NCBI GenBank assembly: GCA_000002445.1
Contig: CM000207.1
Coordinates: forward strand, 928,001-992,000
Length of the DNA: 64,000 bases
From: Trypanosoma brucei
Taxonomy: Eukaryota
Direction: 5' to 3'
Shown here piece by piece: positions 7,709 through 58,577 of the stretch. The notes beneath the pieces were generated by a model. It had not been told where the DNA came from. It ran no database searches and saw only the letters and a program-made list of their open reading frames with translations. The position numbers were made by a program, and so were the translations under genes. How positions within the stretch are numbered: the first letter of the stretch is position 1; each line of letters begins with the position of its first letter.

Positions 7709-8574
7709 AAAAGGAAAATAAAAAACAAACTAACAGACAAAGAGGTATTTCCCCCTCGCAATCCCTCAAAGCGGGTGGTAAAGCAGGGAAAATAAGCAAG
7801 GCGTCTTTGTTCCGAATAAAAGGTTGGTACCCAAATAAGCAATTAACAGTCGCCATATAGTTCCTGTCTGTTTTTAATTCACTTTACGTCTCTTAGTTTT
7901 TGAGCTGAATGTTCTCACCGCCCCTTCTCCTTCCCTTGGACTTTCGCGTCTGCCATTCCCCCACAGGGCGTAACGTTGGAACCTCCTACAATCAGATACA
8001 ACCACAATGGAAGTGTTTTGAATGCGTTGGTCGGACCGAGTTATCGTAAATCCCATCTAAAAAGGAGTAAAAGAGGAGGAAGATAGCAAAAGAAAAGCCA
8101 TGGAAAAGACAGGAAAAAAAGGAATGAAGTGAGGAAACGGAAGGGGAAGTGCGTATTTGGGTTAAATACTATAATTATATTGTGTGACATTCTTTTTTTT
8201 TTTTTTAGTGCGTGTGTGGTTGTTTGTCGGGGGTTCAAGGGAGGGGGGAAGGGGGGAAAGAGAAAACACAAAGAAAAAACAAATAAACATTAAAGGAAGA
8301 TGCAAAGAAGTGCAGGAGATGGTAGTGGCGTGGATGTTCGGAAGCGAAAATGATAATAACAATGATAATGATAATGGTAATGCGCAAACGAAGTAAACGA
8401 GAAGGGATGGCTTCCGCATATCTCTTTTCGGTCTCATCTTCCCTGAAAACAAAGTTTCCTTGTTATTACTCGTCTGGTTCCATATTTCATCCTTTTCATT
8501 ACACTACCTGTATGTGGCCAAGTATCCGCTGTTAAATTTTGTTAGCGCCATGTCCACAGTTACATTCTGTGTCC

Positions 8575-8626
8575 CGTATTTCTCCTTGAACTTCTGCTAC
8601 TTTCCTCCTCTTGTGTTTTGGTACAG
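8575..8626 (+). promoter_or_regulatory. Polypyrimidine tract/AG splice-acceptor region upstream of TXNPx copy 1. An identical element lies at about 10822-10873 for copy 2.
   Basis: cttctgctactttcctcctcttgtgttttggtacAG, conserved in both repeat units. Confidence 0.4.
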
Positions 8627-8745
8627 AAAAAGCAACTCATAGCTAGCAAGTCAGTTTTTCACCAGCTAACTTCAAGTATTCGGCATATACCCATATCAAG
8701 GTAAAAAGGGAGAAAAAGAAAAAAGAAATAAAGATACAATTAAAC

Positions 8746-9345
8746 ATGTCCTGCGGTGATGCGAAACTCAACCACCCTGCGCCTCACTTCAATGAGGTGG
8801 CGCTGATGCCTAATGGCACTTTCAAGAAAGTTGATCTCGCCTCTTACAGGGGAAAGTGGGTGGTACTATTCTTTTATCCTCTCGACTTCACGTTTGTGTG
8901 CCCTACTGAAATCTGCCAATTCTCTGACCGCGTGAAGGAGTTCAACGACGTCGATTGTGAGGTTATTGCATGCTCAATGGACAGCGAATTCTCACATCTT
9001 GCATGGACAAATGTTGAACGCAAGAAGGGTGGATTGGGGACGATGAACATTCCCATCCTCGCTGATAAAACGAAATCAATCATGAAGGCTTATGGTGTAC
9101 TTAAGGAGGAAGACGGTGTTGCATACCGCGGTCTTTTCATCATTGACCCCCAACAGAACCTTCGTCAAATTACCATCAACGATCTTCCAGTTGGTCGTAA
9201 TGTTGACGAAACACTTCGACTTGTGAAGGCCTTCCAGTTTGTGGAAAAACACGGTGAGGTGTGCCCCGCTAACTGGAAACCTGGAAGCAAGACAATGAAG
9301 GCTGATCCCAACGGATCCCAAGATTACTTCAGCAGCATGAACTAA
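8746..9345 (+). CDS. TXNPx: Cytosolic tryparedoxin peroxidase (typical 2-Cys peroxiredoxin), copy 1
   Basis: 199 aa. Peroxidatic Cys motif FTFVCPTEI and resolving Cys VCPANW. Strong peroxiredoxin similarity throughout. Confidence 0.9.
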
Positions 9346-10992
9346 AATGGACTTGTTTCTAAGTTTGCAGTGTATTTCGTTCCTTTCACGAAGCGAGTCA
9401 CGCTGTTTTGGGAGTTCCTGTAGGAGCAATTACGGAAGCACATAAAATTTTCTATAGCCATGAAGAGGAGGATTACCTCCTGTAACGATGGGGTGATGCT
9501 TTCCCTTTTCGTGGTTTAATGCAAGACAGGGAGAGAATTACTATATATATATATATTTTCGTATTGAATATTAAGGTTACGATTTTTGTCACTATCTTTT
9601 TTTTTTATGGCACTGCAGTGTCTTATTGTTTGACTTCGTTCGAGTGCCGCAGCGTGGGAAAGGCAATGTGAAACACGAAAGGAAGGATAAACTTATAGGG
9701 TATTAGGAGTGAAAAATAGGGAAAAAGAGAATAGGCGGGGAGCCTGCTCAGTTTTAGCGAGAAGGCGTTGATATATGTCCGTCGGCAACTCTCATTTTCT
9801 TTCTTCTTTTTTTTTCCTTCTTTGCGTGTTTGCCAGTAGCTAACTCAACAAGATGCTTGTGCTTGTGATTTCGCACTTCACTATGAAGTCTGAGAAGGGG
9901 TTTAGCGATGGGTTCCTCCCAATACTGGGTCATCTCATTTTACACCATGCCTTGCCGATTTTTTTTTGTTCCTTTCCTCTCCACCCACCATTTACCCCTG
10001 GATCCTTACTTTTACCTTCCCCTTCCCTACATGCAAAAGCACAAACCTGTAATTGGTGCAGCTGAAGTAACGGAATAGGGTTTAAATACCCCCAATAGAT
10101 AAGTGCAAAACATACTTGTTACTCACCTATGTTAGTCCACTTGGATAAATGGTGGAAAAGCAAGGCCCATCGTCGCATAAAAGGTGCTCGCGGGGCCCGT
10201 TTTGCGAGTCTTAAGTTTCATGTTCTATTCCTTGGCAGTGTTATTTGTTTTGTTGAGTGGGTGATGCGATCGACTGACTGCTACGAGGATCCCTCTTACC
10301 ATATTGCTCCACCACCAGTCGCGCCTCCTCCACCGTTGGCTGCGTCGATTGGATATGCACTGAGTCGGGAAATGCCACATCTGCGTGTCATGGAACTAGA
10401 GAAAGGGATACCGTCACATTTACCGAAGACGCGGGGTGTTGACTACGTGTTGCTGCGAAGCGAAGGGAGGTTTGTTTAACACCTCAGGTGCACAACATAT
10501 ATATATATATATATGTTTGTGCTAGTGTTACCGTGTTCATCAAGTTTATGTGCATGCAATTTGGTTAGTGGTTTACTTAGGAAGGGGACAACATTTTGTA
10601 CGCAACGTAAGTCGCTTCACTCCTTTGTGAGGGCCAAACCCCCACTCAGGATCTCGCAATGGCGTAAGTGAATAAAAACTGGCAATAACCGCTCTTGTTT
10701 AATTTTACTCTGATTCGCATCTGGACTTCCTCCCCTCTGCACCGTTTCTCTTATGACCGAGAGGTATGTGGTCAAGCACACAATTTTGTTAGCGCCATGT
10801 CCACAGTTACATTCTGTGTCCCGTATTTCTCCTTGAACTTCTGCTACTTTCCTCCTCTTGTGTTTTGGTACAGAAAAAGCAACTCATAGCTAGCAAGTCA
10901 GTTTTTCACCAGCTAACTTCAAGTATTCGGCATATACCCATATCAAGGTAAAAAGGGAGAAAAAGAAAAAAGAAATAAAGATACAATTAAAC

Positions 10993-11592
10993 ATGTCCTG
11001 CGGTGATGCGAAACTCAACCACCCTGCGCCTCACTTCAATGAGGTGGCGCTGATGCCTAATGGCACTTTCAAGAAAGTTGATCTCGCCTCTTACAGGGGA
11101 AAGTGGGTGGTACTATTCTTTTATCCTCTCGACTTCACGTTTGTGTGCCCTACTGAAATCTGCCAATTCTCTGACCGCGTGAAGGAGTTCAACGACGTCG
11201 ATTGTGAGGTTATTGCATGCTCAATGGACAGCGAATTCTCACATCTTGCATGGACAAATGTTGAACGCAAGAAGGGTGGATTGGGGACGATGAACATTCC
11301 CATCCTCGCTGATAAAACGAAATCAATCATGAAGGCTTATGGTGTACTTAAGGAGGAAGACGGTGTTGCATACCGCGGTCTTTTCATCATTGACCCCCAA
11401 CAGAACCTTCGTCAAATTACCATCAACGATCTTCCAGTTGGTCGTAATGTTGACGAAACACTTCGACTTGTGAAGGCCTTCCAGTTTGTGGAAAAACACG
11501 GTGAGGTGTGCCCCGCTAACTGGAAACCTGGAAGCAAGACAATGAAGGCTGATCCCAACGGATCCCAAGATTACTTCAGCAGCATGAACTAA
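10993..11592 (+). CDS. TXNPx: Cytosolic tryparedoxin peroxidase, copy 2 (protein identical to copy 1)
   Basis: Identical 199-aa translation. Same 5' flank. Confidence 0.9.
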
Positions 11593-12659
11593 AATGTGTC
11601 TCGTTTTAATTTTTGTTTTGACTTCTACCTGTGATTTATTATTAATTGTTTTGTTGGGTCGTTCTTCTGGTGTATACAAGGTTTTGTCGTCTCTCCTGTG
11701 TGCCTTACCGGCTTTACTGTTCGTGACGCGTTAAAGCAGCCGCGGAGTGAACAAGTAGCGGTGTTTGGGAAATGGGTTTGGCGGCACTGGATTTACTTTT
11801 CCCTTCCCCCTCTGAGTTTTTTAGCGATCTTTACTTGTTTCCTTTTTGATTGCCCATCACTGCCACTGATATGATACTCACGTTATTCTATTGTGAGATG
11901 TATCAGGTGTGCTGGAAACGCTTTCAGTGGTTCTGATGTTGTAGGGTAAACGATTTCGGCGGCTTTATATCTAAGTTCCACTATGTATGAGGATACTTTG
12001 CATTACTTATATATACATATCTATACTTTTCGTTTTATCTCTTTTTTTTTCTAATTTACCACAATATGTTCGATTTCCCACATGTGTAGACACGCCATTA
12101 GGGAGGCGGAAAGCGAAAGCGTGCGTAATATTTATGTGGGGAAGCGTGGTAAGTTTGATTTGGATAGCCAGTCGGGAACAAATGACGAGGTCTCGGGAAG
12201 GGAAAGGGGAAACGGATGGAGAAGTACAAACTTTTAACGTGTGGTGACTGCATTTTTTTTTCCTTTGAGGGAAGACAGGGAGTTAACTGACACACCGAGA
12301 ATGGTGACGGAAACTATTCCAGTCACACGAACACCAGGGAGGGTATATGCTCGTCGCACTTTTCTTGTGCCCCCGCTGCATATATGCGTGTGTGCATGTA
12401 TAGTAGGTAATCTCTTTCTACTTCATCGCTTCTTGCATTTACATTGTCGTTTTTGTATTATTATTATTATTTTTTTTTTTTTTTGGTATACGTGATTGTA
12501 TACATTTGTACGCACGCGCCGGATGGTGATAATTTTTGTAGAAGTAAGGAGATAACTGGAGTAGGAAGCCCAGACGTGAAGTGTTGCGCCCGATCAGGCC
12601 TTCACGCACTGGATTTATTTTTCTTTTGGCGTTTACTTCTCGACGGTGCCTCTGGGTGG

Positions 12660-30057: not shown

Positions 30058-30794
30058 TTAAGTAACACCGAACACACAGCACAACGATACATTAACTCTA
30101 CCTCCAAGCAAAGAAAAAGTAATGCTCTTGTTGTTTTTTTTGTGTGTGTGAACTAGCGGGTAGTTTGCCTTTATTTTGCCTATTGTTGTTTCCCATTACA
30201 CTCTTGTTTCGAATAGTTTACTTTTCTTTTTCTTTTTAATAATTTTCTTTTATATTTTTCCCTTTCTGCCTGAAGAAGGTAGAGGAGGATGGAGCACGTT
30301 ACACAATAACAAACAGAGAAGCACATATATTTGTATGTGCTTTTCATTAATCCCTTTGTCAATGTTACCTCCACTTTAACCGGAGTGAAGATTTAACATG
30401 ATGCATATAAATGTTTATCAATACATGTGCTTCTCTCCTTGTTTTCTTTTTTTCATAGTTTCGCTACTAGCATTTGATATCATAGCATGTTATTACACTC
30501 CGTTATGTCTTTCTAACAACAGGAGTACAGCGACGGTTTAGTGCTTCGTTTATCTCCATCCTGTTCTCAGCAACATTTCAATGTGATATGTATCGTTATT
30601 CAACAGGTGGCTGATGTAAGTGCTTATATATATACATATATATGTGTATGTATATTTGTACATATATATTCTCCGTAACCTGTCCCCTAGTTTTTCTATC
30701 GCTAATGCCATTAACCTCTCGCATGAGTGGTGGTGCTGATATTGATGATGACAAGGGAATGTCAGGAAAGAGAAAAGGAGGAAGTGGAGGAGGG

Positions 30795-30798
<4 letters not shown>

Positions 30799-30825
<27 letters not shown>

Positions 30826-30827
30826 TG
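30799..30827. repeat. (AAT)n trinucleotide microsatellite (about 9 units). The paralogous copy in repeat unit 2 (about 33537-33572) has about 11 units.
   Basis: Direct reading. Length polymorphism between the two tandem units. Confidence 0.85.
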
Positions 30828-31373
30828 GATGATGCGACTCTTGGTCTCACCACTTTATGTTGAGTCCTAGGAACTGCTGTTGGTTTGTCACTATAATGGG
30901 AAGGTGTGTCTAGTGTGTGAGGATATGCTTGACTGTTTAATTATGCAACAACGCTTAAATTCATTCAAGTCGCATCGTTTCTTTACCACATCTAACAATT
31001 ATGAGTGTTTTTACTCTCTGTATGTTTGTTGCGTGATATGTGTGTGCTCATTATAGAAAGTGCTGCACTTGCGCTCCCATTTCAATCGTAATCCATTTCA
31101 CTCTTTTTCTTTTAATTCTTTCTTACCATTTCTCATTTTGAAACAAACAAAAGGAAGGAAAGCTTTTGTGTTTGACGAGTAATTCCCAACAGTAACAAGA
31201 CAAAATTTGGTTGATTAGGTTTCCAACGTCATAATATACGGCTGAACTTGTCGAAGGTTATATTCCTCAGGAAAAAATTATTGAAAGGATCCCAAACAAT
31301 TTAATAAAAGGATAAACCCACAGAGAAGTTGTTATTACTTTTACACGTATACCCAACTGGAACTCATTGAAAT

Positions 31374-32405
31374 ATGGTGAGGACGACACGCTTTTCACGC
31401 AACAGTTCCAAACCACTGTTTCAGCAATTACAGCTTATTACATCGTATGGACTCTTTCAGGAGTATCCACCCATTTGGTCACTTCCCCTTCCACCTCAAC
31501 AACCTCGTGATACGGGAAAACCCACACTGGTGCTTGATATTGATGAAACACTGATTCATACTGTGGGGATGCGGAATGAGGGGTCGGATTCTGTCTCCTT
31601 CAGTTTCTTCCTGCGTCCACATGCGAAGGAATTTCTCGCGGAGGTACGTGAACTGTACGAAGTTGTGTTCTGGACGGCTGGTACCGCATCCTACTGCTCA
31701 GCTGTTATGGATGCACTGGAGGTGCAGGTGTTACAACTCCCACGATCATTTTACAATATTGATGAACTCCGCGTAGAGGCACGTGGTGGAATCTCCACCA
31801 AGAATGTTAACTTCTATGCCCTTTCCCGAACTCAAACGTTACAAGGGCATAATTACATGAAATACCTTCCAATGCTTGGCAGACCATTGAATCGTGTCAT
31901 AGTGATCGACAGTGATGTACGCAGCTTTCCTCTTCATCCACGTAACGGTGTTAAGATCGAACCCTTCCTACCGAATGAACGTGTTTTATCCGAATATGCC
32001 CGCGTAGTAACCGATGAGGTGAAATATGGTCAAGTTGGTCAGCGGCAGTATGAAGGCGAAATGGCAAAAGTCATTGAGCGTGGTGAGGAGGAGGTAGCGC
32101 GATTGCAAGCGGATCATGCCCTTATGGATCTGATTCCAATGCTACGCTCTGCGGCTTCTTCAACTGATTTGACTCACGAATTAGACCATTGGCGTACGGA
32201 TGAGTACACAAAGTGTGACGACTTTCGTGAAACGATGAACTCTCTCTCAGTGACAAGGCAGAAGATTCTTGGTAATGTTCTTAAGGAGCGACGCAACGTA
32301 CCGATTCCGCCTCTCAAGCAGCACGTGATGAATCATGGATTTATGGAGGAGGCAAATGCCGCTATGAAGTTGGAGCAGATGCGACACACTCCTTCAAGAC
32401 TTTAG
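31374..32405 (+). CDS. NIF/FCP1-like (CTD small phosphatase-like, HAD family) protein phosphatase, copy 1
   Basis: DxDxT catalytic motif LVLDIDETLIHT. FCP/SCP-type core (FFLRPHAKEFLAEVRELYEVVFWTAG). 343 aa. Confidence 0.75.
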   Translation: MVRTTRFSRNSSKPLFQQLQLITSYGLFQEYPPIWSLPLPPQQPRDTGKPTLVLDIDETLIHTVGMRNEGSDSVSFSFFLRPHAKEFLAEVRELYEVVFWTAGTASYCSAVMDALEVQVLQLPRSFYNIDELRVEARGGISTKNVNFYALSRTQTLQGHNYMKYLPMLGRPLNRVIVIDSDVRSFPLHPRNGVKIEPFLPNERVLSEYARVVTDEVKYGQVGQRQYEGEMAKVIERGEEEVARLQADHALMDLIPMLRSAASSTDLTHELDHWRTDEYTKCDDFRETMNSLSVTRQKILGNVLKERRNVPIPPLKQHVMNHGFMEEANAAMKLEQMRHTPSRL

Positions 32406-34114
32406 GAGTATACATCTTAACGGTTAATATACATCTACCGTTGAACTGATGACGGAGCGTATTCGTTTATTAATTAATTAATTTATGAGTCACATATTTG
32501 AGCGATGGCTATTGATCGTGTACGTTACGATACTCTTTCTCCTTTTATTGTTAAAAGTTGTGTGTTTAATACCAATTTTGAGGAGCATCACATGTTATTG
32601 TTTTTTTTTATTTCATTATTTAGTACATTATTTATTATTGTTTTCTCTTCGTATCGTTTTGAGGTCTCTTCCTTTTTTTTTCTTATACTGAATGAAACCG
32701 CTTGTTTCAAAAAAATATTTGTTATACCCTTCTTCTACCTTCATTATCCATACACTCATATATATATATATATACATGCATACATATTTTAATAAGTGTT
32801 GATTTCTGTACGCACTGGGTGAAGCAAGTACAGTGCGTGAAGGCAAAGCAAAGGAAAGGTAATGCTCTTGTTGTTTTTTTTGTGTGTGTGAACTAGCGGG
32901 TAGTTTGCCTTTATTTTGCCTATTGTTGTTTCCCATTACACTCTTGTTTCGAATAGTTTACTTTTCTTTTTCTTTTTAATAATTTTCTTTTATATTTTTC
33001 CCTTTCTGCCTGAAGAAGGTAGAGGAGGATGGAGCACGTTACACAATAACAAACAGAGAAGCACATATATTTGTATGTGCTTTTCATTAATCCCTTTGTC
33101 AATGTTACCTCCACTTTAACCGGAGTGAAGATTTAACATGATGCATATAAATGTTTATCAATACATGTGCTTCTCTCCTTGTTTTCTTTTTTTCATAGTT
33201 TCGCTACTAGCATTTGATATCATAGCATGTTATTACACTCCGTTATGTCTTTCTAACAACAGGAGTACAGCGACGGTTTAGTGCTTCGTTTATCTCCATC
33301 CTGTTCTCAGCAACATTTCAATGTGATATGTATCGTTATTCAACAGGTGGCTGATGTAAGTGCTTATATATATACATATATATGTGTATGTATATTTGCT
33401 GTGTGCAATATACTCCGTAACCTGTCCCCTAGTTTTTCTATCGCTAATGCCATTAACCTCTCGCATGAGTGGTGGTGCTGATATTGATGATGACAAGGGA
33501 ATGTCAGGAAAGAGAAAAGGAGGAAGTGGAGGAGGGATAATAATAATAATAATAATAATAATAATATGGATGATGCGACTCTTGGTCTCACCACTTTATG
33601 TTGAGTCCTAGGAACTGCTGTTGGTTTGTCACTATAATGGGAAGGTGTGTCTAGTGTGTGAGGATATGCTTGACTGTTTAATTATGCAACAACGCTTAAA
33701 TTCATTCAAGTCGCATCGTTTCTTTACCACATCTAACAATTATGAGTGTTTTTACTCTCTGTATGTTTGTTGCGTGATATGTGTGTGCTCATTATAGAAA
33801 GTGCTGCACTTGCGCTCCCATTTCAATCGTAATCCATTTCACTCTTTTTCTTTTAATTCTTTCTTACCATTTCTCATTTTGAAACAAACAAAAGGAAGGA
33901 AAGCTTTTGTGTTTGACGAGTAATTCCCAACAGTAACAAGACAAAATTTGGTTGATTAGGTTTCCAACGTCATAATATACGGCTGAACTTGTCGAAGGTT
34001 ATATTCCTCAGGAAAAAATTATTGAAAGGATCCCAAACAATTTAATAAAAGGATAAACCCACAGAGAAGTTGTTATTACTTTTACACGTATACCCAACTG
34101 GAACTCATTGAAAT

Positions 34115-35146
34115 ATGGTGAGGACGACACGCTTTTCACGCAACAGTTCCAAACCACTGTTTCAGCAATTACAGCTTATTACATCGTATGGACTCTTTCA
34201 GGAGTATCCACCCATTTGGTCACTTCCCCTTCCACCTCAACAACCTCGTGATACGGGAAAACCCACACTGGTGCTTGATATTGATGAAACACTGATTCAT
34301 ACTGTGGGGATGCGGAATGAGGGGTCGGATTCTGTCTCCTTCAGTTTCTTCCTGCGTCCACATGCGAAGGAATTTCTCGCGGAGGTACGTGAACTGTACG
34401 AAGTTGTGTTCTGGACGGCTGGTACCGCATCCTACTGCTCAGCTGTTATGGATGCACTGGAGGTGCAGGTGTTACAACTCCCACGATCATTTTACAATAT
34501 TGATGAACTCCGCGTAGAGGCACGTGGTGGAATCTCCACCAAGAATGTTAACTTCTATGCCCTTTCCCGAACTCAAACGTTACAAGGGCATAATTACATG
34601 AAATACCTTCCAATGCTTGGCAGACCATTGAATCGTGTCATAATGGTAGATGACAATGTGCGCAGCTTTCCTCTTCATCCACGTAACGGTGTTAAGATCG
34701 AACCCTTCCTACCGAATGAACGTGTTTTATCCGAATATGCCCGCATAGTAACCGATGAGGTGAAATATGGTCAAGTTGGTCAGCGGCAGTATGAAGGCGA
34801 AATGGCAAAAGTCATTGAGTGTGGTGAGGAGGAGGTAGCGCGATTGCAAGCGGATCATGCCCTTATGGATCTGATTCCAATGCTACGCTCTGCGGCTTCT
34901 TCAACTGATTTGACTCACGAATTAGACCATTGGCGTACGGATGAGTACACAAAGTGTGACGACTTTCGTGAAACGATGAACTCTCTCTCAGTGACAAGGC
35001 AGAAGATTCTTGGTAATGTTCTTAAGGAGCGACGCAACGTACCGATTCCGCCTCTCAAGCAGCACGTGATGAATCATGGATTTATGGAGGAGGCAAATGC
35101 CGCTATGAAGTTGGAGCAGATGCGACACACTCCTTCAAGACTTTAG
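34115..35146 (+). CDS. NIF/FCP1-like phosphatase, copy 2. It differs from copy 1 at 7 residues, 5 of them clustered in RVIVIDSDV to RVIMVDDNV.
   Basis: Same motifs as copy 1. Tandem unit 2. Confidence 0.75.
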   Translation: MVRTTRFSRNSSKPLFQQLQLITSYGLFQEYPPIWSLPLPPQQPRDTGKPTLVLDIDETLIHTVGMRNEGSDSVSFSFFLRPHAKEFLAEVRELYEVVFWTAGTASYCSAVMDALEVQVLQLPRSFYNIDELRVEARGGISTKNVNFYALSRTQTLQGHNYMKYLPMLGRPLNRVIMVDDNVRSFPLHPRNGVKIEPFLPNERVLSEYARIVTDEVKYGQVGQRQYEGEMAKVIECGEEEVARLQADHALMDLIPMLRSAASSTDLTHELDHWRTDEYTKCDDFRETMNSLSVTRQKILGNVLKERRNVPIPPLKQHVMNHGFMEEANAAMKLEQMRHTPSRL

Positions 35147-35590
35147 GAGTATACATCTTAACGGTTAATATACATCTACCGTTGAACTGATGACGGAGCG
35201 TATTCGTTTATTAATTAATTAATTTATGAGTCACATATTTGAGCGATGGCTATTGATCGTGTACGTTACGATACTCTTTCTCCTTTTATTGTTAAAAGTT
35301 GTGTGTTTAATACCAATTTTGAGGAGCATCACATGTTATTGTTTTTTTTTTGTTTCATTATTTAGTACATTATTTATTATTGTTTTCTCTTAGTATCGTT
35401 TTGAGGTCTCTTCCTTTTTTTTTCTTATACTGAATGAAACCGCTTGTTTCAAAAAAATATTTGTTATACCCTTCTTCTACCTTCATTATCCATACACTCA
35501 TATATATATATACATGCATACATATTTTAATAAGTGTTGATTTCTGTACGCACTGGGTGAAGCAAGTACAGTGACTGTAGTGCTCTGGAG

Positions 35591-48115: not shown

Positions 48116-49330
48116 ATGGGCTTCGGATCATCAAAACCCAAGAACAAGCCGTCCAAAGCTGATTCAAAGAATTCTCCATCAGATCCAACGGGGGCAGGAA
48201 ATAATGATTTGGAAAAGGCCTTTGCGAAACTGCAGGCTGCAAAGGACTGCCACTCGCTGTTGAAGAAACATCTGACAAGTGATGTCTTCAAGAAGCTAAA
48301 GGACAAGAAGACGAAGTTGGGTGCTACCTTACTTGATGTCATTCAATCTGGTGTACAGAACCTCGATTCCGGTGTTGGTTTATATGCACCAGACGCAGAA
48401 GCCTACACTGTGTTTGCCGACCTCTTCGATCCCGTCATTGAGGATTACCACAACGGCTTTAAGGTAACGGACAAACAACCACCAAAGGACTTCGGTGACT
48501 TAAATACGCTGGTTGACGTTGATCCGGAAGGTAAATATGTTATTTCCACCCGTGTGCGCTGTGGCCGCAGTCTCGCCGGTTACCCATTCAACCCATGCCT
48601 AACGAAGGAGCAGTACGAGGAAATGGAGTCACGTGTGCGGGAACAACTGAGCACAATGACAGATGATCTGCAAGGTACTTATTATCCGCTTTCTGGCATG
48701 ACGAAAGAAACACAACAGCAGCTAATTGATGACCACTTCCTCTTCAAGGAGGGCGATCGTTTCCTGCAAGCTGCCCGCGCATGCGAGTATTGGCCAACTG
48801 GTCGTGGTATCTACCATAACAATGACAAGACATTCCTCGTGTGGGTGAATGAAGAGGACCACCTGCGCATCATTTCCATGCAGAAGGGCGGGAACTTGAA
48901 GGAGGTCTTCGGCCGTCTTGTGAAGGCAGTGAACACCATTGAAGAGAAGGTGGAGTTTTCTCGTGATGACCGACTTGGTTTCCTGACGTTCTGCCCCTCG
49001 AACCTCGGCACGACGATCCGCGCAAGTGTGCACATCAAATTACCGAAACTTGGTGCTGATCGCGCTAAACTTGAGGAGGTTGCTGCAAAATATAACCTGC
49101 AGGTACGTGGAACAGCTGGTGAGCACTCTGACAGCCCTGACGGAATTTATGATATCAGCAACAAGCGCCGCCTCGGCCTATCGGAGTATGAAGCCGTAAA
49201 GGAAATGCAAGACGGTATCCTTGAGCTCATCAAACTGGAGCAATCCGATGATGCAGAGGGGAACGGAGGTGCTGACGCTGCTGGGCCAGATGATGGCGTA
49301 GACGGTGTAGCCACGAATGAAAATGAATAA
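48116..49330 (+). CDS. AK1: Arginine kinase, paralogue with N- and C-terminal extensions (404 aa). The N-terminus MGFGSSK fits an N-myristoylation-type start. This is the flagellar isoform in T. brucei.
   Basis: Phosphagen (ATP:guanidino) kinase signature CPSNLGT. Nucleotide-binding arginines. Differs from AK2 and AK3 by about 30 extra N-terminal and about 22 extra C-terminal residues. Confidence 0.9.
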
Positions 49331-50505: not shown

Positions 50506-51618
50506 ATGGCTACCCGCGACGTTGCTGCCGAGTTGGAAAAGGCCTTTGCGAAACTGCAGGCTGCAAAGGACTGCCACTCGCTGTTGAAGAAACATCTGAC
50601 AAGTGATGTCTTCAAGAAGCTAAAGGACAAGAAGACGAAGTTGGGTGCTACCTTACTTGATGTCATTCAATCTGGTGTACAGAACCTCGATTCCGGTGTT
50701 GGTTTATATGCACCAGACGCAGAAGCCTACACTGTGTTTGCCGACCTCTTCGATCCCGTCATTGAGGATTACCACAACGGCTTTAAGGTAACGGACAAAC
50801 AACCACCAAAGGACTTCGGTGACTTAAATACGCTGGTTGACGTTGATCCGGAAGGTAAATATGTTATTTCCACCCGTGTGCGCTGTGGCCGCAGTCTCGC
50901 CGGTTACCCATTCAACCCATGCCTAACGAAGGAGCAGTACGAGGAAATGGAGTCACGTGTGCGGGAACAACTGAGCACAATGACAGATGATCTGCAAGGT
51001 ACTTATTATCCGCTTTCTGGCATGACGAAAGAAACACAACAGCAGCTAATTGATGACCACTTCCTCTTCAAGGAGGGCGATCGTTTCCTGCAAGCTGCCC
51101 GCGCATGCGAGTATTGGCCAACTGGTCGTGGTATCTACCATAACAATGACAAGACATTCCTCGTGTGGGTGAATGAAGAGGACCACCTGCGCATCATTTC
51201 CATGCAGAAGGGCGGGAACTTGAAGGAGGTCTTCAGCCGTCTTGTGAAGGCAGTGAACATCATTGAAGAGAAGGTGGAGTTTTCTCGTGATGATCGACTT
51301 GGTTTCCTGACGTTCTGCCCCTCGAACCTCGGCACGACGATCCGCGCAAGTGTGCACATCAAATTACCGAAACTTGGTGCTGATCGCGCTAAACTTGAGG
51401 AGGTTGCTGCAAAATATAACCTGCAGGTACGTGGAACAGCTGGTGAGCACTCTGACAGCCCTGACGGAATTTATGATATCAGCAACAAGCGCCGCCTCGG
51501 CCTATCGGAGTATGAAGCCGTAAAGGAAATGCAAGACGGTATCCTTGAGCTCATCAAACTGGAGAATCGGGCTGTCGTAACCGATGGCGCCAAACCATTT
51601 GTTGGTTCGAACTTGTAG
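50506..51618 (+). CDS. AK2: Arginine kinase paralogue (370 aa) with a C-terminal extension ending -SNL. This is a PTS1-like tripeptide and marks the glycosomal isoform.
   Basis: Core identical or near-identical to AK1 and AK3. The unique C-terminus is ...[17 protein letters not shown]. Confidence 0.9.
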
Positions 51619-54260: not shown

Positions 54261-55331
54261 ATGGCTACCCGCGACGTTGCTGCCGAGTTGGAAAAGGCCT
54301 TTGCGAAACTGCAGGCTGCAAAGGACTGCCACTCGCTGTTGAAGAAATATCTGACAAGTGATGTCTTCAAGAAGCTAAAGGACAAGAAGACGAAGTTGGG
54401 TGCTACCTTACTTGATGTCATTCAATCTGGTGTACAGAACCTCGATTCCGGTGTTGGTTTATATGCACCAGACGCAGAAGCCTACACTGTGTTTGCCGAC
54501 CTCTTCGATCCCGTCATTGAGGATTACCACAACGGCTTTAAGGTAACGGACAAACAACCACCAAAGGACTTCGGTGACTTAAATACGCTGGTTGACGTTG
54601 ATCCGGAAGGTAAATATGTTATTTCCACCCGTGTGCGCTGTGGCCGCAGTCTCGCCGGTTACCCATTCAACCCATGCCTAACGAAGGAGCAGTACGAGGA
54701 AATGGAGTCACGTGTGCGGGAACAACTGAGCACAATGACAGATGATCTGCAAGGTACTTATTATCCGCTTTCTGGCATGACGAAAGAAACACAACAGCAG
54801 CTAATTGATGACCACTTCCTCTTCAAGGAGGGCGATCGTTTCCTGCAAGCTGCCCGCGCATGCGAGTATTGGCCAACTGGTCGTGGTATCTACCATAACA
54901 ATGACAAGACATTCCTCGTGTGGGTGAATGAAGAGGACCACCTGCGTATCATTTCCATGCAGAAGGGCGGGAACTTGAAGGAGGTCTTCGGCCGTCTTGT
55001 GAAGGCAGTGAACACCATTGAAAAAAAGGTGGAGTTCTCTCGTGATGATCGACTTGGTTTCCTGACGTTCTGCCCCTCGAACCTCGGCACGACGATCCGC
55101 GCAAGTGTGCACATCAAATTACCGAAACTTGGTGCTGATCGCGCTAAACTTGAGGAGGTTGCTGCAAAATATAACCTGCAGGTACGTGGAACAGCTGGTG
55201 AGCACTCTGACAGCCCTGACGGAATTTATGATATCAGCAACAAGCGCCGCCTCGGCCTATCGGAGTATGAAGCCGTAAAGGAAATGCAAGACGGTATCCT
55301 TGAGCTCATCAAACTGGAGAAGTCGAAGTAG
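54261..55331 (+). CDS. AK3: Arginine kinase paralogue without extensions (356 aa), the cytosolic-type isoform
   Basis: Same core as AK1 and AK2. Ends ...IKLEKSK directly after the conserved domain. Shares a 5' flank with AK2 (atctaccaaacaagaaaaaaaattaaag ATG). Confidence 0.9.
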
Positions 55332-56636: not shown

Positions 56637-58577
56637 ATGCCGGATTCACCTGAAACTGGAAGAGCACCAATAAACCTCGAGGGTGAACTCTGCATGGAGA
56701 GGGTAGTGAACTACACTTGGGAGAACTTGGCCTTTCAGGTGCCCGCGAAGGACAGTGATGGGCGTAAGATAAAAAAAACGCTGATCCACAAGATGAGTGG
56801 GACGGCTTTGGGAGGGCGGGTCCTCGCAATCATGGGGCCATCCGGTGCCGGAAAAACTACATTGATGAGCGCCATCACGGGAAAACTGCACGGCACAGAA
56901 AAGAACCTTGAAGGATGTTGCTTCCTTAACAATGCGATATTCACAGATCGGTACAGGGCGGTCGTGTCTTTTGTGGCGCAGGATGATATTGTCATGGCCA
57001 TGGACACACCGTATGAAGCCACTTACTTTGCATGCCGCGTACGTCTCGGGTTGGGGCCTCGCGAATCAGAAGTCCTTGTGAATGAAGTCATTAACCGTCT
57101 GCACCTTGTAGAGTGCCAGGACACCGTGTTGGGTATTCCAGGACTTGTAAAGGGTGTGTCGGGTGGTGAACGGAAACGAGCTAATGTGGCCACGGCTCTC
57201 GTGGCAAACCCCTGTGTTATTGTGTTGGATGAACCAACCACTGGCCTCGACTCCGTCAACGCCCTTCGCGTGGGTCAGATGCTTCAAGACCTCGCAAAGA
57301 AGGAGAAGCGAACTGTTATCGCAACCGTTCACTCACCATCTTCTGAGCTCGTAGAGACATTCGATGACCTATTATTACTCTCTGAGGGTCATGTGGTATA
57401 TCATGGACCGAGGGAGGAGGCCACAGCATACTTCGCATCTATCGGTCATCAGGTGCCCCCGCGGACAAATCCCTGTGAGTACTTCATGGAACTCCTTCAG
57501 CTTCCGAAGGAGGAGTTAGAGGTGTTGTGGCGGGCCTGGGAACTTTATCTGACGACGCCAGCCGCGAGCACGAATCCCTGCCTGTTAAAGGTGTCGGGCC
57601 CCATTACGGAGAGAGACCCCTACCTGGAAGACCATCTAAAGAAAAAAGGATCCAGCTGGATTGTCCAACTGGTTGAACTTACGAAACGCTCCTATCGAAT
57701 GTATCCCCGCCACCCAAGCGCTGTCTTTGTTCGACTCGTGCAGACACTCTTCGTTGGTATTCTGATGGCCCTTTTCTATTTTCGGATTACTTTGGATCAA
57801 AATGGCGTGAAGGATCGTCTCGGTGTTCTACATATGGTGTTAATTAATGGCATGTTTTCGTCCGCAATGTACGGCGCCGCCGCTTACCCACCGGAACGTG
57901 CTGTGTATCTTCAGGAGCAATCCACCGACTCGTACAATGCGCTGACTTACGTGCTCGCAAAGTTTATCGCTGAGACGGCGTTTCAGGTTGCGTTCCCCAC
58001 GGCGTTCGCTCTAATCACCTACTTTACGATCGGGTTTTACGCTTCATTTTCCGCCTTTATGGTGCACTGGTTTCTGTTGGTGCAGTTAGCCCTCACAGCG
58101 TATGCCTTTGGTCTCGCCTTCGCAACGTTCTTCAAGTCCATCAACACAACCTACGCGCTGCTTCCTGTTGTGTTTCTCCCGCTCATTATAGTAACCGGGT
58201 TGTACGCCAACACAGAACGGTTGCACCCCTATTGGTCGTGGTTGATCGTCATTTCTTTCCCTCGTCACGCCTACCTTGGTGTCGTTATCAATGAGTTCAG
58301 CAGACTTGAAAAGATTTGTGACCCACCTGACCTTCACTGCCGCTATCCCGATGGTCAATCTGTCATTGAGTTCTTTAATTTTGACAGTTGGAGTTGGTGG
58401 AAGTCCATTGTCGTGCTCCTGGCGTATCAAGCTGTGCTTATCATCATCACATTTGTGTCCCTGCTCATTCAGGGGAAGCGAAGCAGAGGACGTTTAGTAT
58501 TCAGGAAGAATCTTGACTCCCGTAGCGACCCTGCTCAGACCGCTGCTTGCGCTGGTGAAACGGAAGAGGGGAAGTGA
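56637..58577 (+). CDS. ABCG: ABC transporter, ABCG-type half transporter (NBD followed by 6-TM domain)
   Basis: Walker A GPSGAGKTTLMSAITGK. ABC signature VSGGERKRANVA. Walker B VIVLDEPTTGLD. NBD-then-TMD order and a C-terminal hydrophobic domain typical of ABCG/White-type proteins. Confidence 0.8.
   Translation: MPDSPETGRAPINLEGELCMERVVNYTWENLAFQVPAKDSDGRKIKKTLIHKMSGTALGGRVLAIMGPSGAGKTTLMSAITGKLHGTEKNLEGCCFLNNAIFTDRYRAVVSFVAQDDIVMAMDTPYEATYFACRVRLGLGPRESEVLVNEVINRLHLVECQDTVLGIPGLVKGVSGGERKRANVATALVANPCVIVLDEPTTGLDSVNALRVGQMLQDLAKKEKRTVIATVHSPSSELVETFDDLLLLSEGHVVYHGPREEATAYFASIGHQVPPRTNPCEYFMELLQLPKEELEVLWRAWELYLTTPAASTNPCLLKVSGPITERDPYLEDHLKKKGSSWIVQLVELTKRSYRMYPRHPSAVFVRLVQTLFVGILMALFYFRITLDQNGVKDRLGVLHMVLINGMFSSAMYGAAAYPPERAVYLQEQSTDSYNALTYVLAKFIAETAFQVAFPTAFALITYFTIGFYASFSAFMVHWFLLVQLALTAYAFGLAFATFFKSINTTYALLPVVFLPLIIVTGLYANTERLHPYWSWLIVISFPRHAYLGVVINEFSRLEKICDPPDLHCRYPDGQSVIEFFNFDSWSWWKSIVVLLAYQAVLIIITFVSLLIQGKRSRGRLVFRKNLDSRSDPAQTAACAGETEEGK

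What the first reader, a model, noticed from the sequence alone, without database searches (positions are those of the whole stretch)
31374..35146. Catalytic-motif region singled out for divergence in an otherwise near-identical NIF/FCP phosphatase tandem pair
The two 2.74-kb repeat units are almost base-for-base identical, including intergenic DNA. That implies recent duplication or ongoing gene conversion. Yet 8 substitutions are packed into about 24 bp (31896-31920 vs 34637-34661). They change RVIVIDSDVRSF to RVIMVDDNVRSF. By alignment to SCP1/FCP1 (..KVVILDNSPASY..), this is the position of the HAD motif IV DNSP/DD element that co-ordinates Mg2+. Neither copy has the canonical DNSP. The two differ in which acidic residues are present (IDSD vs VDDN). 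Clustered nonsynonymous change inside a homogenised repeat looks like patchy conversion from a third paralogue, or diversifying selection on substrate or metal handling.
Basis: partly seen in the sequence, partly recalled or inferred. Interest (0 to 1): 0.6.

Follow-up and report, generated by a model that had tools for sequence, protein, structure and literature searches.

The report
PIP39 phosphatase twins, one rewired metal site
The two tandem copies of the Trypanosoma brucei differentiation phosphatase PIP39 are kept almost identical by ongoing homogenisation, except for a 13-base island that replaces a universally conserved magnesium-binding aspartate with serine in one copy; this island is preserved across subspecies, which suggests the parasite keeps two functionally different versions of the enzyme.

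Summary
The window is T. brucei TREU927 chromosome 9. The two ORFs are the known PIP39 pair, XP_826990.1 and XP_826991.1. The repeat units (30106-32835 and 32846-35573) are about 99% identical. Nine of the 11 CDS substitutions fall within 18 bp (P about 4e-12), and they change VIDSD to MVDDN at HAD motif IV.

- Copy 2 (DDN) is canonical. It is FCP1-like and matches 52 kinetoplastid orthologue clusters.
- Only copy 1 (DSD) is derived. It has Ser at the position that ligates Mg2+ directly in Fcp1.
- Synonymous sites in the patch are saturated, so this is not a dN/dS-type diversifying signal. No donor was found.

New result: comparison with T. b. gambiense and a third assembly shows textbook concerted evolution. 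About 50 lineage-specific sites are shared by both copy types across the unit. The only type-specific sites are 8 nt at 31902-31914, and homogenised sites lie 37 bp upstream and 70 bp downstream. PIP39 is single-copy in T. vivax, T. cruzi and T. theileri.

Best reading: selection keeps two isoforms that differ in metal-site geometry. The functional difference is inferred, not shown. This is a new variant of a known kind, of moderate interest.

The parts
30106..32835 (+). Repeat unit 1 (5' intergenic region, PIP39 A-type CDS and about 430 bp of 3' flank)
   Evidence: BLAST self-alignment, 98.9% to unit 2; boundaries read directly
32836..32845 (+). 10-bp junction between the two units
32846..35573 (+). 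Repeat unit 2 (PIP39 B-type), ending 18 bp before the ATG of the MAP65-like gene
31374..32405 (+). PIP39 copy 1, here called 'A-type' (343 aa, identical to XP_826990.1); motif IV is D179-S180-D181, the derived form
34115..35146 (+). PIP39 copy 2, here called 'B-type' (343 aa, identical to XP_826991.1); motif IV is D179-D180-N181, the ancestral form
31902..31914 (+). A-type island: the 8 nucleotide positions (31902, 31905, 31907, 31910-31914) that are the only type-fixed differences in the whole unit across genomes; they fall in codons 177-181, VIDSD
34643..34655 (+). B-type island, codons 177-181, MVDDN
31919..31919 (+). Ninth patch substitution (V182, GTA versus GTG); synonymous and absent from all DAL972 copies and GCA_003543875.1, so not part of the type-fixed island (the T. 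equiperdum OVI unit also has GTA)
31536..31550 (+). Motif I, DxDxT (D55-I-D57-E-T59), intact in copy 1; the same motif lies at 34277-34291 in copy 2
34277..34291 (+). Motif I, DxDxT, in copy 2
32205..32207 (+). Tyr278 codon, the regulatory PTP1-target phosphotyrosine described in the literature; present in both copies (34946-34948 in copy 2)
   Evidence: PMC3827541
32394..32402 (+). C-terminal -SRL, a PTS1-type glycosomal targeting signal; identical in copy 2 (35135-35143)
   Evidence: PMC2994645
32004..32004 (+). V211 (copy 1) versus I211 (copy 2); private to TREU927 copy 1
32079..32079 (+). R236 (copy 1) versus C236 (copy 2); private to TREU927 copy 2
30657..30670 (+). Second clustered difference (versus 33397-33413) in TG/TA-rich intergenic DNA; private to TREU927 unit 1 and not type-fixed

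Best explanation
The locus is the tandem PIP39 array of T. brucei. PIP39 is a glycosomal DxDxT (FCP/SCP-type HAD) phosphatase that promotes differentiation from stumpy to procyclic forms. Unequal crossing-over and gene conversion continually homogenise the 2.74-kb units, both coding and non-coding. A 13-bp island at HAD motif IV escapes, probably because selection removes arrays that lose either version.

The B version (D179-D180-N181) is the ancestral enzyme. The A version (D179-S180-D181) is specific to T. brucei. It replaces the carboxylate that ligates the catalytic Mg2+ directly in Fcp1 (Asp298; Asn207 in Scp1) with a hydroxyl, and places an Asp one residue further along the loop. The number of acidic residues therefore stays the same while the metal-site geometry changes.

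Predicted consequence (inferred, not shown): the A isoform has altered Mg2+ affinity, metal preference or turnover. Citrate responsiveness of the PTP1/PIP39 pair depends on an intact PIP39 active site, so the A isoform should also respond differently to the citrate/cis-aconitate differentiation signal. It should keep its PTP1 interaction (Y278), its DxDxT nucleophile and its glycosomal targeting.

Shown here: identity of the gene, the motif IV assignment, the polarity of the change (A is derived), concerted evolution of the flanks, and persistence of the island across lineages. Inferred: selection as the cause of that persistence, and a biochemical difference between the isoforms.
For: Identity: both ORFs match T. 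brucei TREU927 XP_826990.1 and XP_826991.1 exactly. Orthologues are annotated as PTP1-interacting protein 39 kDa, and the pair is cited as TbPIP39A&B, Tb09.160.4460/4480 (PMC2994645).

Family and fold: NIF domain, E 5e-31 and 2e-32. The AlphaFold model (pTM 0.83) matches Scp1 with a TM-score of about 0.76. Strand 175-179 ends in D179, with residues 180-181 in the following loop.

Motif IV register: D179 aligns to Scp1 D206 and residue 180 to N207. In Fcp1, Asp298 Od1 is a direct Mg2+ ligand and Asp297 acts through a water (PMC4436666). Scp1 Asp206 contributes to Mg2+ coordination through a water, and D206A traps the phospho-aspartyl intermediate (PMC3215212).

Polarity: 52 orthologue clusters are DDN (45), DDH (6) or DDS (1). 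DSD occurs only in the three T. brucei-group A sequences. The B patch is identical in protein sequence to T. cruzi. Against a profile of the orthologues, A scores 9.3 bits below B, and D180S alone costs 4.6 bits. PIP39 is single-copy in the same gene neighbourhood in T. vivax, T. cruzi and T. theileri.

Concerted evolution: outside the patch, A and B within a genome differ by 0.0007-0.0048. Copies from different genomes differ by 0.018-0.019 whatever their type. About 50 lineage-specific sites are shared by both types. The only type-fixed sites are the 8 at 31902-31914, with homogenised sites at 31865 and 31984.

Both types are present although array structure varies: A-B in TREU927, A-B-A-B in DAL972, and A-A-B-B-B-B in GCA_003543875.1. 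PIP39 copy number changes during culture (bioRxiv 10.1101/2021.06.10.446608).

Rough estimate (inference): if a typical site was last homogenised about 0.04-0.27 of the TREU927-gambiense divergence time ago, neutral survival of the island on both lineages has a probability of about 1e-3 or less.

Active-site mutants of TbPIP39 still stimulate PTP1 but lose citrate sensitivity (PMC3798605), so an altered active site plausibly changes signal response.
Against: No biochemical data separate the two isoforms, and I could not find out which copy was used in the published enzymology (the Genes Dev 2010 paper is not held).

The D180S and N181D pair conserves net charge, so it may be a functionally neutral compensated swap.

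A cluster of 8 mismatches in 13 bp could itself hinder heteroduplex formation or repair across the patch. That would lower the local conversion rate without any selection.

Only three T. brucei-group genomes with resolved arrays were available. One has a 100-N gap (DAL972) and one has indel errors (GCA_003543875.1). The T. equiperdum OVI assembly has a gap inside the array, so its content is unresolved.

The survival-probability estimate rests on a crude Poisson model.
Confidence: 0.5

Rival explanations
1. Neutral persistence. The A patch is a functionally equivalent, charge-compensated variant. It survives only because its high mismatch density (8 in 13 bp) blocks or reverses conversion across it (heteroduplex rejection or restoration repair), while the perfectly matching flanks are freely homogenised. 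No selection for two isoforms is needed.
For: Homogenised sites resume within 37 bp upstream and 70 bp downstream of the patch, as expected if tracts stop at the mismatch cluster. The D180S and N181D pair keeps the number of acidic residues. Jackson 2007 notes that divergence lowers the probability of conversion and that regions can 'escape conversion' (PMC1855330).
Against: Homogenisation by unequal crossover, or by gap repair that copies through the patch, does not depend on mismatches. Over the time in which about 50 substitutions were spread to both types in each lineage, such events should have removed one version. The change hits the one position that is invariant in 52 orthologue clusters, which is an unlikely place for a neutral variant. 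Array size and order have changed (2, 4 and 6 units), yet both types remain.
Confidence: 0.25
2. Origin by a single multi-nucleotide event. Either a micro-conversion from a diverged third NIF-family paralogue or a templated or error-prone repair event wrote all 8 changes at once. This concerns how the patch arose and is compatible with either account of its maintenance.
For: All synonymous positions in the 5 codons differ as well (3 differences over about 2.3 synonymous sites). Synonymous divergence elsewhere in the CDS is 1 in 234, and TREU927 versus gambiense dS is 0.03. Stepwise selected point mutations on a young duplicate would not produce this.
Against: There is no donor within the 64-kb window at up to 3 mismatches. 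No other protein with the A-type words was recovered from 5.8 billion clusters. Relative to the congolense/theileri state MIDDN, changes lie on both branches (I178V on B; M177V, D180S and N181D on A). That fits an old island of divergence at least as well.
Confidence: 0.2
3. The A copy is a decaying enzyme or pseudo-phosphatase. Loss of the direct Mg2+ ligand marks relaxed constraint on a redundant duplicate.
For: S180 replaces a residue that is invariant in all other orthologues and is a direct metal ligand in Fcp1. A scores 9.3 bits lower than B against the orthologue profile.
Against: The A-type ORF is intact and complete in TREU927, DAL972, T. equiperdum OVI and the first unit of GCA_003543875.1. 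The DxDxT nucleophile, T101, K163, D179, Y278 and -SRL are all retained. There are no further degenerative changes. A neutral or deleterious patch would be overwritten by the frequent homogenisation seen everywhere else. The patch sequence itself is invariant across subspecies.
Confidence: 0.08
4. Assembly or collapse artefact: the patch is allelic or strain polymorphism wrongly placed into two tandem copies.
For: Tandem repeats are often mis-assembled. The DAL972 and OVI arrays contain gaps.
Against: The same two versions occur within single contigs of three independent assemblies made with different technologies. The A version is recovered at 100% identity from eight separate read-set assemblies. 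Both exact proteins are deposited for TREU927 and DAL972.
Confidence: 0.01

Closest known systems
TbPIP39 (PTP1-interacting protein, 39 kDa; Tb927.9.6090/6100, formerly Tb09.160.4460/4480, 'TbPIP39A&B'), Szoor et al. 2010 as cited in PMC2994645, PMC3798605 and PMC3827541
   Same: It is this gene pair. The protein sequences match the TREU927 entries exactly. It has the DxDxT motif, Y278 and the C-terminal -SRL glycosomal signal.
   Different: The accessible literature treats PIP39 as one protein. No paper I could search or read mentions the motif IV difference, its polarity or its conservation between subspecies. My 'A-type' and 'B-type' labels follow gene order and were not checked against the published A/B names.
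Human Scp1/CTDSP1 and S. pombe Fcp1 (FCP/SCP subfamily of HAD phosphatases, Pfam NIF PF03031)
   Same: The catalytic core fold is the same (TM-score about 0.76 to Scp1). So are motif I DxDxT, motif II Thr, motif III Lys, and motif IV at the end of a beta-strand. The B copy has the Fcp1-type DD.
   Different: The A copy has Ser where Fcp1 has Asp298 and Scp1 has Asn207, the direct Mg2+ ligand. PIP39 also has a helical C-terminal extension of about 140 residues with no PDB match, it is glycosomal, and it is not known to act on the RNA polymerase II CTD (PMC2994645).
Concerted evolution with sequence mosaics in T. brucei tandem gene arrays (Jackson 2007, PMC1855330; Jackson et al. 2010, PMC2854126)
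   Same: Units are more alike within a genome than between genomes, in non-coding DNA as well. Copy number varies between subspecies.
   Different: Those surveys took arrays of more than 3 copies and do not list PIP39. Here the unhomogenised remnant is a single island of 118 bp or less, centred on catalytic residues and conserved across subspecies.
Arginine kinase triplet in the same window (48116-49330, 50506-51618, 54261-55331)
   Same: A tandem array with cores about 99% identical and isoform-specific segments retained.
   Different: The isoform-specific parts there are N- and C-terminal extensions at the unit edges, not an internal active-site patch.
Gene-conversion-homogenised paralogues with islands maintained by selection, such as primate red/green opsin spectral-tuning sites (my own knowledge, not checked here)
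   Same: Conversion erases divergence except at a few functionally decisive codons.
   Different: Different organisms and genes. For PIP39 the functional difference has not been demonstrated.

Membership tests
FCP/SCP (NIF, PF03031) DxDxT phosphatases of the HAD superfamily | Significant match to the NIF domain model | tested here: met
   108 bits (copy 1) and 112.4 bits (copy 2) against a cutoff of 21.8
FCP/SCP (NIF, PF03031) DxDxT phosphatases of the HAD superfamily | Motif I DxDx(T/V), with the Asp nucleophile and the general acid/base Asp | tested here: met
   D55-I-D57-E-T59 in both copies; invariant across orthologues
FCP/SCP (NIF, PF03031) DxDxT phosphatases of the HAD superfamily | Motif II Thr/Ser and motif III Lys | tested here: met
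   T101 (fwTAGt against Scp1 lfTASl) and K163 (nymKyl against nyvKdl) align; both copies are identical at these positions
FCP/SCP (NIF, PF03031) DxDxT phosphatases of the HAD superfamily | Motif IV: hydrophobic strand followed by D-(D/N), the second residue ligating Mg2+ directly | tested here: inconclusive
   Copy 2 meets it (VIMV-D179-D180). Copy 1 does not at the second position (VIVI-D179-S180, then D181). Whether D181 or S180 can take over metal binding cannot be decided from sequence.
FCP/SCP (NIF, PF03031) DxDxT phosphatases of the HAD superfamily | Scp1-like Rossmannoid core fold | tested here: met
   AlphaFold model with pTM 0.83; Foldseek against Scp1 gives E 5e-11 and target TM-score 0.76
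FCP/SCP (NIF, PF03031) DxDxT phosphatases of the HAD superfamily | Divalent-cation-dependent phosphatase activity | not testable with these tools
   Reported for 'TbPIP39' (PMC2994645), but which copy was assayed is unknown
PIP39 orthologue group of kinetoplastids | Conserved gene neighbourhood (Erv1, RPS3, PIP39, MAP65-like, EF-hand) and full-length similarity | tested here: met
   The same gene order occurs in T. vivax and T. cruzi, and the downstream part in T. theileri. Identity is 56-74% over 100% of the length to other Trypanosoma species.
PIP39 orthologue group of kinetoplastids | Regulatory Tyr278 and a C-terminal PTS1-type tripeptide | tested here: met
   Y278 is invariant in the alignment. 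Both copies end in -SRL. Most orthologues end in S/A-R/K-L.
Concertedly evolving tandem array with a selectively maintained island | Paralogues within a genome are more alike than copies at the same array position in different genomes, in non-coding DNA as well | tested here: met
   0.0007-0.0048 within genomes against 0.018-0.019 between genomes, independent of type
Concertedly evolving tandem array with a selectively maintained island | Type-specific sites shared across lineages and confined to the island | tested here: met
   The 8 sites at 31902-31914 are the only type-fixed sites among TREU927, DAL972 and GCA_003543875.1
Concertedly evolving tandem array with a selectively maintained island | Demonstrated functional difference between the isoforms, or a fitness cost of losing one | not testable with these tools
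   Needs enzymology, genetics and population genomics
Catalytically dead HAD pseudo-phosphatase (such as fungal Tim50, which PMC6686227 describes as lacking a perfect DxDxT motif) | Loss of the DxDxT nucleophile or general acid | tested here: not met
   D55 and D57 are intact in both copies

The most novel reading that the evidence does not exclude
The A-type PIP39 is a T. brucei-specific, neofunctionalised isoform. Its rewired Mg2+ site (Asp180 to Ser, Asn181 to Asp) would change how the PTP1/PIP39 switch reads citrate/cis-aconitate. For example, it could be a low-turnover or differently metal- and citrate-gated partner that sets the threshold or bistability of the stumpy-to-procyclic decision. 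The two isoforms together, rather than 'PIP39' as a single species, would then be the signalling module. That would tie a lineage-specific active-site innovation to the lineage-specific stumpy/CCA transmission biology of T. brucei.
Probability: 0.12. Interest if true: 0.75.

Novelty: new variant of a known kind. Interest (0 to 1): 0.45.

Why it matters
PIP39 is a central node of the only well-defined signalling pathway that triggers T. brucei transmission-stage differentiation (PAD, then PTP1, then PIP39, then the glycosome). RNAi, antibodies and most proteomics treat the two genes as one protein.

If the two isoforms differ at the catalytic metal site, published enzymology and citrate-response data may describe only one of them. 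Models of the PTP1/PIP39 bistable switch may then lack a component.

The locus is also an unusually clean natural experiment. A single island of 118 bp or less, centred on a metal-ligand residue, has resisted homogenisation that erased every other difference over 2.7 kb. This points directly to which residues to mutate, and it gives a simple population-genomic test by k-mer counts in tsetse-transmitted versus non-transmitted lineages.

If the isoforms turn out to be equivalent, the locus is still a useful example of mismatch-limited conversion in trypanosome tandem arrays.

Tried and rejected
1. Donor search. The 24-mers of both patch versions and the 16-mer A core were searched in the window at up to 3 mismatches. 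Only the patches themselves matched, apart from one chance-level 3-mismatch hit at 56745.

2. Second large protein search, with the A-type protein at E up to 1e-3. It returned the same PIP39 orthologues plus three weak environmental NIF fragments. There was no T. brucei paralogue and nothing carrying the DSD patch words. This is a weak negative, because sensitivity is limited by the word index and the database-size E-values.

3. T. congolense DNA, the key outgroup. No contig is on record for P0002, so codon-level polarisation relied on T. vivax, T. cruzi and T. theileri, whose synonymous sites are saturated (pS 0.79-0.88).

4. The exact TREU927 proteins P0053 and P0054 are not on record in the contig index.

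5. The original PIP39 paper (Genes Dev 2010, PMC2885665) and the Scp1 kinetics paper (PMC2868240) are not held. Supplements of PMC3798605 contain no sequence strings for either patch.

6. Windowed dN/dS as a test for positive selection was rejected as uninformative. The patch has only 5 informative codons and its synonymous sites are saturated.

7. I looked by eye for a small inversion or a local quasi-palindromic template that could convert the B patch into the A patch and found none. The A patch does contain an imperfect 10-bp tandem (AGTGATCGAC / AGTGATGTAC), to which I attach no weight.

8. The pseudogene/pseudo-phosphatase reading and the assembly-artefact reading were considered and rated low (see rivals).

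Full report
WHAT IS THERE. The window is Trypanosoma brucei brucei TREU927 chromosome 9. The two 343-aa ORFs at 31374-32405 and 34115-35146 match XP_826990.1 and XP_826991.1 exactly. Their orthologues are annotated as 'PTP1-interacting protein, 39 kDa'. The pair is cited in the literature as TbPIP39A&B, Tb09.160.4460/4480 (PMC2994645). PIP39 is the DxDxT phosphatase that promotes stumpy-to-procyclic differentiation. TbPTP1 holds it in check by dephosphorylating Tyr278, the pathway responds to citrate/cis-aconitate, and the enzyme acts in the glycosome (PMC3827541; PMC3798605). Both copies carry the NIF domain (PF03031, E 5e-31 and 2e-32), D55-x-D57-x-T59, Y278 and a C-terminal -SRL. Upstream lie Erv1 and ribosomal protein S3, and downstream a MAP65-like gene.

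CHECK OF THE OBSERVATION. The repeat units are 30106-32835 and 32846-35573, joined by 10 bp, and they are 98.9% identical. The CDSs differ by 11 substitutions. Nine lie at 31902-31919 and the other two at 32004 (V211I) and 32079 (R236C). So it is 9 substitutions in 18 bp, not 8 in 24. They produce four amino-acid changes: V177M, I178V, S180D and D181N. The clustering cannot be chance: 0 of 300,000 random placements gave more than 5 of the 11 within 18 nt, and the analytic estimate is about 4e-12.

IS IT MOTIF IV? Yes. HMMER aligns copy 2 'rvimvDDnvrsf' to CTDSPL 'kviivDNspasy' and to Scp1 'rvlilDNspasy'. By chain numbering this puts PIP39 D179 on Scp1 D206 and residue 180 on N207. An AlphaFold model of copy 1 (pTM 0.83; pLDDT about 92 over residues 171-180) places V175-D179 in a beta-strand with residues 180-181 in the following loop. 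This mirrors strand 51-55, which ends in D55 of DxDxT. The model matches Scp1 structures (E 5e-11, target TM-score about 0.76) and, more distantly, CTDNEP1, Tim50 and Fcp1. In the S. pombe Fcp1-BeF3 structure the six Mg2+ ligands include Asp298 Od1 directly and a water held by Asp297 (PMC4436666). For Scp1, Asp206 contributes to Mg2+ coordination through a water, and D206A traps the phospho-aspartyl intermediate (PMC3215212). PIP39 position 180 is therefore the direct metal-ligand position. It is Asp in copy 2 and Ser in copy 1.

WHICH COPY IS UNUSUAL? In 52 orthologue clusters from Trypanosoma, Leishmania and other trypanosomatids, Bodo and environmental kinetoplastids, the motif is DDN (45), DDH (6) or DDS (1). 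DSD occurs only in the three T. brucei-group sequences of copy-1 type. The copy-2 patch MVDDN is identical in protein sequence to T. cruzi and one conservative step from T. congolense and T. theileri MIDDN. Against a profile of the 50 non-brucei orthologues, the B-type protein scores 485.1 bits and the A-type 475.8. D180S alone costs 4.6 bits. Copy 2, which I call B-type, is the ancestral, FCP1-like DD form. Copy 1, the A-type, is a derived state specific to T. brucei. PIP39 is single-copy in the same gene neighbourhood in T. vivax, T. cruzi and T. theileri, so the duplication is younger than the split from T. vivax. T. congolense DNA could not be obtained.

THE KEY NEW RESULT: CONCERTED EVOLUTION AROUND A PERSISTENT ISLAND. 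T. b. gambiense DAL972 has four units in the order A-B-A-B, with a 100-N gap between the first two. A third T. brucei-group assembly, GCA_003543875.1, has six units that read A, A, B, B, B, B; three of these carry 1-2 bp deletions that look like long-read errors. I aligned whole units from TREU927, DAL972 and GCA_003543875.1.
- About 50 substitutions and indels distinguish TREU927 from gambiense. They are spread over the intergenic DNA, CDS and 3' flank, and every one is shared by both copy types within a genome.
- The only sites fixed between A and B in all genomes are the 8 positions 31902, 31905, 31907 and 31910-31914.
- All other TREU927 A/B differences are absent from the gambiense copies and are not type-fixed. 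This includes the ninth patch site (31919), V211I, R236C and the intergenic cluster.
- With the patch excluded, A and B within a genome differ by 0.0007-0.0048. Copies from different genomes differ by 0.018-0.019 whether they are of the same type or not.
- Homogenised lineage-specific sites lie 37 bp upstream (31865) and 70 bp downstream (31984), so the unhomogenised island is at most 118 bp.
- Eight independent read-set assemblies give contigs 100% identical to the gambiense A unit.

WHAT KIND OF SELECTION, AND HOW DID THE PATCH ARISE? In the five codons there are 5 non-synonymous and 3 synonymous differences, over about 12.7 and 2.3 sites. Synonymous sites are saturated, and dN/dS is not above 1. 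The rest of the CDS has 1 synonymous and 2 non-synonymous differences. TREU927-gambiense dS is 0.03 and brucei-vivax pS is 0.88. Each patch version is invariant across subspecies. This is not ongoing diversification. It fits one of two origins:
- an old island of divergence left after everything else was homogenised; or
- a one-step multi-nucleotide replacement.

Relative to MIDDN, the changes lie on both branches (I178V on B; M177V, D180S and N181D on A), which mildly favours the first origin. No donor exists in the window, and no other protein sharing the A-type words was found. The rest of the genome could not be searched at the DNA level.

MOST LIKELY MECHANISM. The array is continually homogenised by unequal crossover and gene conversion. 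This is well documented for T. brucei tandem arrays (PMC1855330 and PMC2854126), and PIP39 copy number is seen to change during culture. Events that overwrite the patch would be eliminated because both isoforms are useful. A crude estimate (inference): a typical site was last homogenised about 0.04-0.27 of the TREU927-gambiense divergence time ago, so neutral survival of the island on both lineages has a probability of roughly 1e-3 or less.

Biochemically, S180 removes the direct Mg2+-ligating carboxylate and D181 restores an acidic group one residue along the loop. I predict altered metal affinity, metal preference or turnover. Active-site mutants of TbPIP39 still stimulate TbPTP1 but lose citrate sensitivity (PMC3798605), so I also predict an altered response to citrate/cis-aconitate. 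These functional steps are inferred and none was tested here. I give this explanation 0.5.

The main rival (0.25) is neutral persistence: the swap is charge-compensated and functionally equivalent, and 8 mismatches in 13 bp impede conversion across the patch. Readings as a decaying copy (0.08) or an artefact (0.01) are poorly supported, because the A-type ORF is intact in every assembly, all other catalytic residues are retained, and the patch is conserved.

COMPARISON WITH WHAT IS KNOWN. The genes, their family and concerted evolution in trypanosome arrays are all known. I found no paper that mentions the motif IV difference between the two PIP39 genes, its polarity or its conservation. The case resembles other homogenised paralogue pairs that keep a few functionally decisive codons. 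The arginine kinase triplet in this same window is a local analogue: its cores are about 99% identical and its termini are isoform-specific.

VERDICT. I classify it as a new variant of a known kind, with interest 0.45. It is a sharp and cheaply testable lead on a well-studied signalling enzyme, but the functional difference remains hypothetical.

Noticed in passing
window 48116-49330, 50506-51618, 54261-55331: Three tandem arginine kinase genes (PF00217 and PF02807). Their cores are about 99% identical over about 1.04 kb, but their N- and C-termini differ (404, 370 and 356 aa). This is another homogenised array that keeps isoform-specific ends.
   Followed up: partly
window 8746-9345 and 10993-11592 (repeat 8535-9366 / 10782-11613): Two tandem 2-Cys peroxiredoxin (AhpC-TSA) genes encoding 100% identical 199-aa proteins, within an 833-bp repeat of 99.4% identity.
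   Followed up: partly
window 30657-30670 versus 33397-33413: A second cluster of differences between the PIP39 units, in TG/TA-rich intergenic DNA (TTGTACATATATATTCTCC versus TTGCTGTGTGCAATATACTCC). It is private to the first TREU927 unit; all gambiense units share the other form. It probably reflects microsatellite-type slippage or a small local event.
   Followed up: partly
L014 10001-11035 (T. vivax PIP39) versus window 31908-31916: T. vivax motif IV codons are GAC GAT AGT (D-D-S). The T. brucei A-type has GAC AGT GAT (D-S-D): the same three codons with the last two swapped. I could not tell whether this is coincidence or a clue to how the A state arose.
   Followed up: no
L018 1-3000 (T. 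equiperdum OVI, GCA_001457755.2): This assembly has a 10-N gap inside the PIP39 array. The unit next to the MAP65-like gene carries the A patch, including the GTA codon 182 otherwise seen only in TREU927 copy 1. In TREU927 and DAL972 the last unit is B-type. Either the unit order differs or the repeat was collapsed. T. equiperdum is not tsetse-transmitted (my own knowledge), so relaxed selection on PIP39 is conceivable.
   Followed up: partly
L003+L013 (GCA_003543875.1), units starting at merged positions 10001, 12761, 15495, 18233, 20974, 23711: A six-unit PIP39 array with patches reading A, A, B, B, B, B. Three units have 1-2 bp deletions in the patch that break the frame; these are probably long-read errors and not pseudogenes.
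   Followed up: partly
window 31374-32405, protein residues about 200-340: The C-terminal half of PIP39 is predicted to be a helical extension, mostly at high confidence. It has no structural match in the PDB beyond the Scp1-like core, and it contains the regulatory Y278.
   Followed up: no
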